A stretch of 64,000 nt of DNA from Escherichia coli (GTDB lineage Bacteria; Pseudomonadota; Gammaproteobacteria; Enterobacterales; Enterobacteriaceae), in the NCBI RefSeq assembly GCF_030013595.1, contig NZ_CP122768.1; one strand, written 5' to 3'. Below are positions 6,001 to 9,000 of this stretch, one piece after another. The first letter of the stretch is position 1. Each line of letters begins with the position of its first letter. The position numbers are program-made.

Positions 6001-9000
6001 CGATTGAAATCGATAGGACGATTAATGTTACACACGCCCGCGTTATTGACCAGAATATCTAACTGACCGAAACGCTCCAGACACCTATTAATAATGGTAC
6101 ATGCTGCATCAGGTTTTGTTATGTCTATTGTCATAAACTCAACTTCAACGCCTTCATGAGTTAAATGCTTTAAATATCTATTATCAGGCTCTTTGATGTC
6201 TACCAACAACAGATTAGCCCCTGCTTTGGCCAGAGCCGAGCATAAGCCTCTCCCCAGTTCACCCGCGGCCCCAGTTACGATGGCCACCTTGTTATGTAAT
6301 GAAAAAAAATCCAATGAAAAATCTTCAATAGAAAAGCTCATATCACACATTGCTCCTTATGAGTAAGTAATATTTAAGGGATAATTTAAGTAATTTTTAG
6401 ATTTCAATAAAAAATATAAACGTTAAAACTCAGCATGAATAATAAACATCAAATCTTATATACATTTAAGTAGTGATGTATCACGTAAAAATATAGTCAT
6501 CATAGATGTTATGCAGTACGCACAAAAAAACAGACTGGATTTGCTTGCTGATCTATAATCTTTATCTAAATTACTATTGGCGCTTTGGATAATAACATAA
6601 GCATATATTACCTCCTAGCAATAATAGACTTAACCTCATATCAAGGTGTCACTGGTAAATAATCGGATAAAAGACAGTATCGGTCGGCGCATAGAGCTTC
6701 TTCTATTTCACCAGAAGTGCACAGCAGGGAACTACCAATCACACGGTTAGTGTCATGGGTGGAGGATGCGCCCCGTTCTTTCCCTATAACGGGGATACGC
6801 AGTTTCTATCAGTACATGCAGAAAACCCCTAATTCACATCACTGCAGAAAGCATTTAATAGAAATATACATCGTTTAAGAATTTCAATTAAATCAAGATT
6901 ATTCTTAAAAATCAGATAATTCACATTTGCATTTTTAGGAAATTATACTATAGTGCACTTAATGTTCTTGCCTTTATTTTCTGAGTAATACTGGATTTGT
7001 AATACACAACTAAGGTATAAAATGTAATGATCTACATTATAAATGATGAAGTAAGATTCAACTCATCATCTAATAAGTTAACATCACTCCTTACATCAGA
7101 GGAAGTGATACTCACTTATCCTGCGGGAAAATGCTTAAAGTTACTTTTAGATAACGCTTATAGTGTCGTGTCACACAATCAATTCTTTGAAAAAGTCTGG
7201 AGCGATAGCAGTGCCGAAGTCGCAACCAACACTTTATATCAAAATATATCGATGATAAGGCGTTCCTTTCGTGAAATCAGCTCAGCGACGATATTTAATG
7301 ATGTTATCAGAACGGTGCCACGTAAAGGCTTCAAAATCAATGAAGAAATCAACATAACTGTTCTCGACAATAATCACAATGAGAATGAAAGTGTTGAGAG
7401 CGAAGAGAGTGAAGAGAATGGCACCCACACTGAAAATATAAATAAAAATCACGTTGCAAAAGGTATATTTACCACAAAGAATACATTACTTATAGTTTGT
7501 TTTTTTGCTGCATGGGGGATAGTGTATATATCTTCTTATTTTTTCGATATGGCTTTTCAAAGCAAATCCCACACTATAAAAAAAATAGATGCTTTCTCAA
7601 ATTATGCTCAATACCCTACTCAGGAAGGATGCAGTTATTTCTATGATAATAAATACTTTAATTCCGTAGACATGCTATCACCGATTATTGAAAAATTGCA
7701 GAAAATGGAAGTCAACTGCAAAATACATCCTTACATTTACATTGCAACAAATGATAGCATGAGCGGGTTTTATGCTTTCACCTGTAGTCAAATGTTAAAC
7801 TCTGAATCACCAAATAATTGCAACTCTCTCTATTATAAAGCGGAGTAATCATATGACTCAAAGATATTTTCTGTTTGCGGGAATAATTTTATGTGCTTTT
7901 ATTGCAGCAATTCTGAGCCATATTGCGTTTCATCATGCTAATGAACCAGCAGAGCAAAACATATCAAGTAATGCCCATGTTATTAATTTCACCGATCATA
8001 CAAAAATGGATCAATATTTTTCGTTAAATATGATTTCTGAAAATAACACAGGAAACATGTATCTCACGGGTGCATACACGGTAGATGGAAAAAAGATGGG
8101 CTTCATCCGCCGATATGTGAGTTTTACATACAAGAAATTCCGTGATACCGTTTATCTCACCACAGTTAAAATCCAAAAAATACAAAAAGATGATAACATT
8201 AGCGATGAAGTCCTTGAAAATATCACTTCTGATTTCTTCATAAAAGCAGACACTTCAATTAATTATTATGTTACGCGTCAAAATGATTATAACTACGTAT
8301 TCTCTACAGGCAGGACACCACGCTTCATATGTATTACTCACTAACAGCATTGTTGCTCCTGGCGTTTGTCACCAGTTAATAGCATTCTGATTGCTTTGTT
8401 TATACTTTAAGACAATAAAATACCATTCTAATATAAGGTGATTCTTTATCTGTTTATATACCACTGATAAAACTCTGTCGCTTTCATTGGTTTTGCATAT
8501 AAGTATCCCTGAACTAATGTCACGTTATTATGAATAAGATATTCTGCCTGGTGAGGAGTACTGACACCTTCTGCAATCGTTATCAAATTTAGTCGATTAC
8601 TCAGCTTAATAATAATATCTAAAACTGGCGTTTCGTCTTCCGCTGTAGTGAGTGTGTCTATAAAGCTTTTATCTATTTTAAGATAATCAACAGACAACTT
8701 TTGTAGAAGGCCAAGTGAACAATATCCCGTGCCAAAATCATCAACTGCAAATTCATAGCCATGGATCCTTAATTCATTTATTTTCTGTAATGCAAGATCA
8801 GTATCTTCAACCAGATTGCGTTCGGTAATCTCAAGGACAATGTTAAATTTATCAGATATTGCATTTTTAATATGTAAAACATCAGCAGCAAAATCAGGAT
8901 GTGCAAGATGTTCCGCGGCAATATTTATCCCAAGGTGAAACGGTTTTTTCACTTTCCAGCTTTGTACATCCTGAATAATCAGTTCAAAGAGATGTTTAGT

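What the first reader, a model, noticed from the sequence alone, without database searches (positions are those of the whole stretch)
6351..7026. Large AT-rich intergenic region with an embedded GC-rich hairpin upstream of the ToxR-like regulator
A 676-bp non-coding stretch, very AT-rich with A/T tracts suggestive of curved, H-NS-bound DNA, precedes the regulator. Within it, a GC-richer patch (approx 6660-6790) contains the hairpin CCCCGTT-CTTTCCCTAT-AACGGGG. This may be a small RNA, a leader structure or a relic of a degraded gene.
Basis: seen in the sequence. Interest (0 to 1): 0.3.

Follow-up and report, generated by a model that had tools for sequence, protein, structure and literature searches.

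The report
grvA promoter region; hairpin likely meaningless
The AT-rich gap is the already-studied control region in front of the E. coli O157 virulence regulator gene grvA, and the GC-rich hairpin inside it lies upstream of the mapped transcription start, is not conserved and is most likely non-functional spacer DNA.

Summary
The sequence features are real. There is a 676-685 bp gene-free gap (32% GC, flanks 25-27%), a 47-49% GC patch (about 6641-6840), and a 7-bp/10-nt-loop hairpin at 6771-6794.

The locus is O-island 47 of EHEC-type E. coli. The "ToxR-like regulator" is grvA (z1531/ECs1274), followed by its fidL-like partner. An SDR oxidoreductase gene, frameshifted in this strain, lies on the other side and is read the other way.

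Published Cappable-seq places the grvA start site at window 6961. The hairpin is therefore 167 nt upstream of the transcript and is not a leader.

In a second lineage (33E) the patch is 26% diverged with indels. Four-fold degenerate sites in the flanking genes are only 15-18% diverged. The hairpin's outer pair shows all four bases among strains, an inner pair or the right arm is broken in two lineages, and there are no compensatory changes.

There is no Rfam match, no terminator tail, no second copy and no protein homology in any frame.

What is selected is:
- the proximal 134 bp (6893-7026, 98.5% identical), which holds the σ70 promoter and an RcsB-box-like palindrome at -60.5;
- an unexplained invariant 44-nt block (6584-6627) carrying AGGAGGT-ATG on the minus strand.

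Ordinary, low interest.

The parts
5560..6341 (-). SDR-family oxidoreductase gene (ECs_1275 / EDL933_RS07180 orthologue), divergent from grvA. It is frameshifted in this window by a 1-nt deletion at about 5914.
   Evidence: Two overlapping ORFs. It is intact at 260 aa in EDL933. The indel was located.
6342..7026 (.). Divergent intergenic region between the SDR gene and grvA; the finding's 6351-7026 lies within it.
6584..6627 (.). A 44-nt run that is invariant between the main lineage and the 33E lineage, inside DNA that is otherwise about 77% identical. Its function is unknown.
   Evidence: Alignments. My estimate of the chance of such a run is about 1e-3, from the identities. It is single copy per genome.
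6566..6616 (-). AGGAGGT (6616-6610), 5 nt, then ATG (6604) opening a 12-codon ORF, MLMLLSKAPIVI*. The ORF is 27 codons in lineage 33E. The SD and AUG can pair in a weak hairpin. This is hypothetical.
   Evidence: Sequence read. Fold is -11.2 kcal/mol, z -1.05. It is not in the Sakai Ribo-seq small-gene list.
6641..6840 (.). GC-richer patch (47% GC). It evolves at or above the synonymous rate, with indels. No function is assigned.
6771..6794 (.). The hairpin CCCCGTT-N10-AACGGGG. The full 7-bp form is seen here only in this window and, with a bulged right arm, in lineage 33E.
6894..6907 (.). CAAGATTATTCTTA, a palindromic 11/14 match to the RcsAB-box consensus, centred at -60.5 from the grvA TSS. 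It lies at the upstream edge of the 98.5%-conserved promoter block (6893-7026).
   Evidence: Reviews describe RcsB activation of grvA. Binding was not tested.
6926..6954 (+). grvA sigma-70 promoter: -35 TTTGCA (6926-6931), 17-nt spacer, -10 TATAGT (6949-6954).
   Evidence: Promoter scan. The spacing fits the published TSS.
6961..7026 (+). grvA 5' UTR (66 nt), starting at the TSS A6961. It has no unusual structure.
   Evidence: Cappable-seq position 1426796 in CP008957.1, mapped to the window. Fold z is -0.23.
7027..8344 (+). grvA (7027-7848, ToxR-family membrane regulator) and its FidL-like partner gene (7853-8344).

Best explanation
The interval is the divergent control region between an SDR oxidoreductase gene (minus strand) and the grvA-fidL-like operon (plus strand) of O-island 47.

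The working part for grvA is the proximal ~135 bp. It contains a sigma-70 promoter (TTTGCA-17-TATAGT) firing at A6961, with a 66-nt unstructured leader. Just upstream is an RcsB-box-like palindrome at -60.5, through which the Rcs phosphorelay is inferred to activate grvA. The surrounding 25-27% GC DNA is the kind of sequence H-NS silences (inferred only).

The GC-richer patch and its CCCCGTT/AACGGGG hairpin lie 120-320 nt upstream of that start site. They are not part of the grvA transcript and are not maintained by selection. They are best read as functionless spacer of unknown origin, perhaps left over from when the island's modules were joined. The hairpin is a chance inverted repeat.

Shown: the anatomy, the TSS (published), and the conservation pattern. 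Inferred: RcsB binding at 6894-6907, H-NS silencing, and the lack of function of the patch.
For: Identity of the locus:
- 99-100% matches to EDL933 and Sakai OI-47, with grvA = ECs_1274 and a FidL-like ECs_1273.
- Reviews give grvA = z1531 in OI-47, activated by RcsB.

Start site: a gene-associated TSS at CP008957.1:1426796 in 4 of 8 conditions maps to window 6961, 6 nt after TATAGT.

Conservation, window versus lineage 33E:
- 6893-7026: 98.5% identical
- GC patch: 73.9% identical, with 4 gap columns
- 4-fold degenerate sites of grvA, grvB and the SDR gene: 82-85% identical

Hairpin variation:
- Position 6771 is C, T, A or G among 11 sequences.
- G6791A occurs in one metagenome contig.
- The right arm carries a T insertion in 33E.
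- No compensatory changes; 5 of 7 pairs are invariant.

Negative searches:
- Patch folding is no better than shuffles.
- No Rfam hit at E<=10 inside 6351-7010.
- No T-run after the stem on either strand.
- Single copy in each of 400 genomes, and absent from plasmids and phages apart from two misfiled chromosomal records.
- No protein homologue in any frame.
Against: - Only two lineages exist for comparison (main lineage >=97% identical; 33E about 82%), so the power to detect weak constraint or covariation is low.
- The inner six base pairs of the hairpin are intact in most main-lineage strains, and its local stability is somewhat better than shuffles (z about -2).
- Short runs inside the patch (GGGAACTACCAATCACAC; CCTAATTCACATCACTGCAG) are identical between lineages.
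- The orphan-TSS table of the Cappable-seq study was truncated in the held copy and could not be checked at this coordinate. The eight conditions were all laboratory media.
- The RcsAB-box match has 3 mismatches and is not significant on its own: 8 matches in the window against 4 expected.
- H-NS binding is untested.
Confidence: 0.72

Rival explanations
1. The GC patch is the decayed remnant of a protein-coding gene, or of a junction between island modules. For example, it could be the 3' end of a gene once co-oriented with the SDR gene, now non-functional.
For: - GC content equals the genome average, unlike the flanks.
- Divergence is neutral-like or faster, with indels.
- A 54-codon open frame on the minus strand ends 27 nt before a strong SD-ATG.
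Against: - No Pfam hit.
- No word-sharing homologue for either long frame.
- Exhaustive HMMER of all long six-frame pieces against 1.84 billion proteins returned only a spurious ORF called on a noisy assembly of this same locus.
- A 54-codon open frame is expected by chance (about 0.37 across six frames, my estimate).
- The frame is broken by an indel in 33E.
Confidence: 0.25
2. The patch and hairpin are part of a small RNA, or of a long 5' leader of the SDR gene on the minus strand, expressed only under conditions not sampled (host, Rcs induction).
For: - The hairpin has modest extra stability.
- A strong SD-ATG and an invariant block lie just downstream on the minus strand.
- An antisense TSS inside grvA (about 7344, minus strand) points towards this region.
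- The SDR gene has no mapped upstream TSS.
Against: - No Rfam family.
- No terminator tail.
- No TSS in the gene-associated or antisense lists.
- Absent from the Hfq-crosslinked intergenic list and from the Ribo-seq small-gene list.
- The sequence diverges faster than synonymous sites, and hairpin changes are disruptive rather than compensatory.
Confidence: 0.07
3. The patch is a far-upstream protein-binding module (for example for GrvA itself, Gad regulators or a nucleoid protein) that modulates the divergent promoters, or a GC-rich barrier that limits H-NS spreading.
For: - Two 18-20 nt runs are conserved between lineages.
- TAATTCACAT is repeated at 6830 and again at 6917, next to the -35 element.
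- Its position lies between two AT-rich arms.
Against: - The 10-nt repeat is within chance expectation (about 0.3 expected in 800 nt, my estimate).
- Overall divergence exceeds the synonymous rate.
- No motif was identified.
Confidence: 0.08

Closest known systems
grvAB (grvA-fidL-like) promoter of EHEC O-island 47, an RcsB-activated virulence regulator operon
   Same: The sequence is 98.8-99.9% identical to the O157:H7 locus. It has the same flanking genes, and the published TSS maps onto a matching -10/-35.
   Different: - This strain differs by about 1% in the intergenic region.
- It has a frameshifted SDR gene and a 9-nt in-frame insertion in grvA.
- Among the sequences compared, the full 7-bp hairpin is seen only in this window and (bulged) in lineage 33E.
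marT-fidL of Salmonella SPI-3 and the other ToxR/ToxS-like co-component cassettes (VtrA/VtrC, YqeI/YqeJ)
   Same: The operon architecture is homologous: a membrane-bound wHTH regulator plus a lipocalin-like partner. Both are AT-rich, horizontally acquired virulence cassettes.
   Different: No DNA-level similarity of the upstream regions was found. Nothing is known of an equivalent GC patch there (not examined).
Rho-independent terminator / sRNA 3' hairpin
   Same: A GC-rich 7-bp stem.
   Different: The loop is 10 nt, there is no U/T run after the stem on either strand, and the stem is not conserved.
REP/BIME/ERIC-type repeated extragenic palindromes
   Same: A palindromic GC-rich element in an intergenic region.
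   Different: It is strictly single copy per genome and occurs only at this locus.
H-NS-silenced promoters of horizontally acquired genes (xenogeneic silencing)
   Same: 25-27% GC arms flank a promoter that needs a dedicated activator.
   Different: There are no binding data. The high-affinity motif is not enriched and A-tract density is only slightly raised.

Membership tests
sigma-70 promoter of grvA | -35 and -10 hexamers with a 16-18 nt spacer, and an experimentally mapped 5' end 5-9 nt downstream | tested here: met
   TTTGCA-17-TATAGT, 9/12 match. The Cappable-seq TSS is 1426796 = window 6961, 6 nt after the -10.
RcsB/RcsAB box | A 14-bp palindromic site resembling TaAGaatatTCctA (consensus recalled from Wehland & Bernhard 2000), placed upstream of or overlapping the -35 | tested here: inconclusive
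   CAAGATTATTCTTA is an 11/14 match on both strands, centred at -60.5, at the edge of the conserved block. However, 8 such matches occur in the window against 4 expected.
RcsB/RcsAB box | RcsB binding and RcsB-dependent activation | not testable with these tools
   Activation is reported and binding only hypothesised in reviews. The primary papers were not held.
Rho-independent terminator | A GC-rich stem-loop immediately followed by a U-rich tract | tested here: not met
   The stem is followed by ATACGCAG on the + strand and CGCATCCT on the - strand. The only terminator-like call in the patch is a different, 5-bp stem at 6757-6773.
Small regulatory RNA gene | Own transcription start and a defined 3' end | tested here: inconclusive
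   No TSS appears in the gene-associated or antisense tables for 1426797-1427417. The orphan-TSS table was truncated. There is no terminator.
Small regulatory RNA gene | Sequence or structure conservation above the neutral rate, or membership of a described family | tested here: not met
   The patch is 26% diverged against 15-18% at 4-fold sites. There are no compensatory pairs and no Rfam match.
5' leader / riboswitch-like element of grvA | Located between the TSS and the start codon | tested here: not met
   The hairpin at 6771-6794 is upstream of the TSS at 6961. The real 66-nt leader folds no better than shuffles.
Pseudogene / gene relic | Detectable similarity of a translated frame to a protein family | tested here: not met
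Repeated extragenic palindrome (REP/ERIC/MITE) | Multiple dispersed copies per genome | tested here: not met
   One place per genome in 400 genomes, and no other copy in the 64-kb window.
H-NS-bound xenogeneic DNA | AT content well above the genome average | tested here: met
   The arms are 24.7-26.9% GC against 49.1% for the window.
H-NS-bound xenogeneic DNA | Occupancy by H-NS | not testable with these tools
   No ChIP data for this locus were found.

The most novel reading that the evidence does not exclude
The invariant 44-nt block (6584-6627), not the GC hairpin, may be a real undescribed element. It would be a minus-strand translation-initiation module: AGGAGGT-N5-AUG, foldable into an SD/AUG-sequestering hairpin with two G·U pairs. 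It would open a tiny leader ORF (MLMLLSK...) that controls the downstream SDR gene or encodes a micro-peptide. It might be fed by the antisense promoter inside grvA, and so could couple SDR and grvA expression.
Probability: 0.12. Interest if true: 0.35.

Novelty: already known. Interest (0 to 1): 0.1.

Why it matters
grvA links the Rcs envelope-stress and bicarbonate signal to LEE type III secretion and to acid resistance in EHEC, so its control region does matter. But the region, its activator and its start site are already in the literature.

This check adds three modest points:
- The eye-catching GC hairpin can be set aside.
- The selected promoter core is delimited to about 6893-7026, with a candidate RcsB site at -60.5.
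- A short invariant block further upstream deserves a cheap experimental look.

Tried and rejected
- Rfam at E<=10 over 5000-9000: only chance-level hits, and none within 6351-7010.
- Terminator scan: nothing at the hairpin.
- Folding of the patch on both strands: z -0.94 and +0.07.
- Pseudogene hypothesis. Pfam, two word-index searches and one exhaustive HMMER run on concatenated six-frame pieces were all tried. The single hit, P0001, turned out to be an ORF called on an indel-ridden assembly of the same locus (95.6% identity, 61 gaps).
- Repeat or mobile-element hypothesis: single copy in E. coli, nothing in plasmids or phages, and no internal duplicate.
- Search for the locus in other species. 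A GrvA peptide scan of 100,044 species representatives gave one misbinned E. coli-like MAG contig. A metagenome scan with the invariant 26-mer gave five main-lineage contigs. No third lineage was found.
- The OZ197100 variant was rejected as a comparator, because the region is replaced by simple repeats.
- H-NS motif scan: not enriched.
- Literature. The Morgan 2016 primary paper is not held. There is no entry for this intergenic region in the Sakai Ribo-seq small-gene tables or the Hfq-CRAC tables. No H-NS ChIP data for grvA were found.
- The alternative -35 TTCACA / -10 TATACT promoter was rejected in favour of TTTGCA/TATAGT. The latter fits the mapped TSS, and TTCACA is TTCAGA in EDL933.

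Full report
**What is there**

The window between about 850 and 11,600 matches O-island 47 of E. coli O157:H7 at 98.8-99.9% identity. The gene order is: fimbrial usher, adhesin and chaperone; an SDR oxidoreductase on the minus strand; the gap in question; a winged-helix regulator and a small partner gene on the plus strand; then an EAL phosphodiesterase, dgcT and pgaA. In the Sakai record the regulator is annotated grvA (ECs_1274) and its partner is 'FidL-like' (ECs_1273). Reviews give grvA = z1531 in OI-47. It is a ToxR-family regulator that activates LEE and represses glutamate-dependent acid resistance, and is itself activated by RcsB. It forms a ToxR/ToxS-like co-component pair with the FidL-like protein.

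**Checking the observation**

All the described features are present.
- The gap 6351-7026 (or 6342-7026 with RefSeq's SDR start) has 32.2% GC, with arms of 26.9% and 24.7%.
- The patch is 48.9% GC over 6660-6790 and 47.0% over 6641-6840. That equals the 49.1% of the whole window.
- The hairpin is CCCCGTT (6771-6777) / AACGGGG (6788-6794) with a 10-nt loop.

Its statistical weight is small.
- Perfect 7-bp stems with 3-12 nt loops occur 0.94 times per dinucleotide shuffle of the gap.
- GC-rich stems are rare in shuffles (0.3-1%), but the real 64-kb window contains 34 of them.
- The 36-nt hairpin folds about 2 sd better than shuffles. The 201-nt patch does not (z -0.94 and +0.07).
- A/T tracts are only slightly denser than average (1.63 against 1.18 per 100 nt), and the H-NS high-affinity motif is not enriched.

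**Position relative to transcription**

A Cappable-seq study of EDL933 lists one gene-associated start for this regulator, at CP008957.1:1426796, in four of eight conditions. That base maps to A6961 in the window, six bases after TATAGT (6949-6954). TTTGCA (6926-6931) lies 17 nt upstream of the -10.
- The leader is thus 66 nt, and it folds no better than shuffles.
- The hairpin ends 167 nt upstream of the start site, so it cannot be a grvA leader structure.
- The same study's gene-associated and antisense tables contain no other start inside the gap.
- Its orphan-TSS table is truncated in the held copy and could not be checked.
- The gap is absent from the Hfq-crosslinked intergenic list of Tree et al. 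and from the Sakai Ribo-seq small-gene tables.

**Conservation**

The gap is present once per genome in 400-401 of 5,426 complete E. coli genomes. A scan of species representatives with GrvA peptide patterns and a metagenome scan with an invariant 26-mer from the gap found it only in E. coli-like contigs. Two lineages exist: a main one (>=97% identical) and a small one typified by strain 33E (six or seven genomes).

Comparing the window with 33E:

| Segment | Identity |
|---|---|
| 4-fold degenerate sites, grvA / grvB / SDR | 81.7% / 85.2% / 83.0% |
| GC patch (6641-6840) | 73.9%, with four gap columns |
| Left AT arm (6342-6585) | 79.5% |
| Promoter-proximal 6893-7026 | 98.5% |

The patch therefore evolves at least as fast as synonymous sites, while the promoter core is more conserved than the coding sequence.

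Within the hairpin:
- Position 6771 is C, T, A or G in different strains.
- One contig has G6791A opposite an unchanged C.
- 33E has a T inserted in the right arm.
- Counted formally, five pairs never vary, none shows a compensatory change, and the variable ones are broken or wobble.

**What the patch is not**

- It matches no Rfam family.
- It has no T-run after the stem on either strand.
- It has no other copy in E. coli, plasmids, phages or the window.
- Neither long open frame across it (54 codons on the minus strand, 71 on the plus strand) has a Pfam hit or a homologue.
- An exhaustive HMMER search with all long six-frame pieces returned a single 92-aa protein. That protein is an ORF called on a gap-ridden assembly of this same locus.

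A gene relic remains possible as an origin, because the composition and neutral drift fit. It cannot be demonstrated.

**What is selected in the gap**

First, the block 6893-7026. Its upstream edge coincides with CAAGATTATTCTTA (6894-6907). This is a palindromic 11/14 match to the RcsAB-box consensus (recalled from the literature), centred at -60.5. The match alone is not significant, with 8 in the window against 4 expected. However, its position, its conservation and the reported RcsB dependence of grvA make it the obvious candidate site.

Second, a 44-nt run at 6584-6627 is identical in both lineages amid about 77% identity. I estimate the chance of such a run at roughly 1e-3 from the figures.
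- On the minus strand it reads CTATTATTGCTAGGAGGTAATATATGCTTATGTTATTATCCAAA. That is a perfect AGGAGGT five bases before an ATG, which opens a 12-codon ORF (27 codons in 33E, diverging after residue 7).
- It can fold so that the SD and AUG are paired (-11.2 kcal/mol, z -1.05).
- It also contains a weak promoter-like TTGCTA-16-TATGTT that would face the SDR gene.
- No data decide between these readings.

**Verdict**

The gap is the known grvA control region. The functional grvA promoter lies in its last ~135 bp. The GC patch and hairpin are real in sequence but show no sign of function and are most likely neutral spacer, possibly a relic. Interest is low. The only loose end worth a small experiment is the invariant 44-nt block.

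Noticed in passing
window 6584-6627 (minus-strand SD 6616-6610, ATG 6604, stop 6568-6566): A 44-nt run is invariant between two lineages that otherwise differ by about 23% in this gap. It carries AGGAGGT-N5-ATG and a 12-codon ORF (27 codons in lineage 33E), and the SD and AUG can pair in a hairpin. It is single copy per genome.
   Followed up: partly
window ~5914 (SDR gene, 5560-6341, minus strand): A 1-nt deletion relative to EDL933, next to a T7 run, splits the SDR oxidoreductase into two overlapping ORFs. The gene is a pseudogene in this strain but intact (260 aa) in EDL933, Sakai and 33E.
   Followed up: yes
window ~7344, minus strand (CP008957.1:1426413, + strand): Published Cappable-seq lists an antisense TSS inside grvA in five of eight conditions. 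It points towards the intergenic region and the SDR gene. How far the transcript extends is unknown.
   Followed up: no
window ~7396-7404: A 9-nt in-frame insertion (GAGAGCGAA, a near-duplicate of the adjacent GAGAGTGAA) lies in the acidic linker of grvA. The protein is 273 aa here against 270 aa in EDL933.
   Followed up: partly
L002 (NZ_OZ197100.1) ~6440-6950: In this RefSeq 'complete' genome the right half of the gap and all of grvA are replaced by about 500 nt of (AC)n, (AT)n and (GT)n repeats and long C and T runs. This looks like an assembly artefact rather than biology.
   Followed up: no
window 6771: The outermost 5' base of the hairpin stem shows all four nucleotides among 11 near-identical sequences. 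That is unusually variable for a region that is 97-99% identical overall.
   Followed up: partly
whole locus: The grvA locus is present in 400 of 5,426 complete E. coli genomes. These include non-O157/O55/O145 strains from humans, poultry (APEC37), gulls and water. This is at odds with review statements that it is exclusive to the O157:H7 / O55:H7 / O145:H28 lineage.
   Followed up: partly
L005 (CAKVEW010000085.1) and L012 (GCA_002230035.1): A MAG labelled 'uncultured Clostridium sp.' carries a 2.5-kb contig of this E. coli island, so it is likely misbinned. Separately, an indel-ridden E. coli assembly contributes a spurious 92-aa 'protein' from this intergenic region to the public protein collection.
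   Followed up: yes
window 6874-6909: A perfect 9-nt inverted repeat, TTTAAGAAT / ATTCTTAAA, has its arms 18 nt apart. It brackets and overlaps the RcsB-box-like site, so TAAGAAT half-sites occur at both 6876-6882 and 6901-6907. The left arm is altered in lineage 33E.
   Followed up: no
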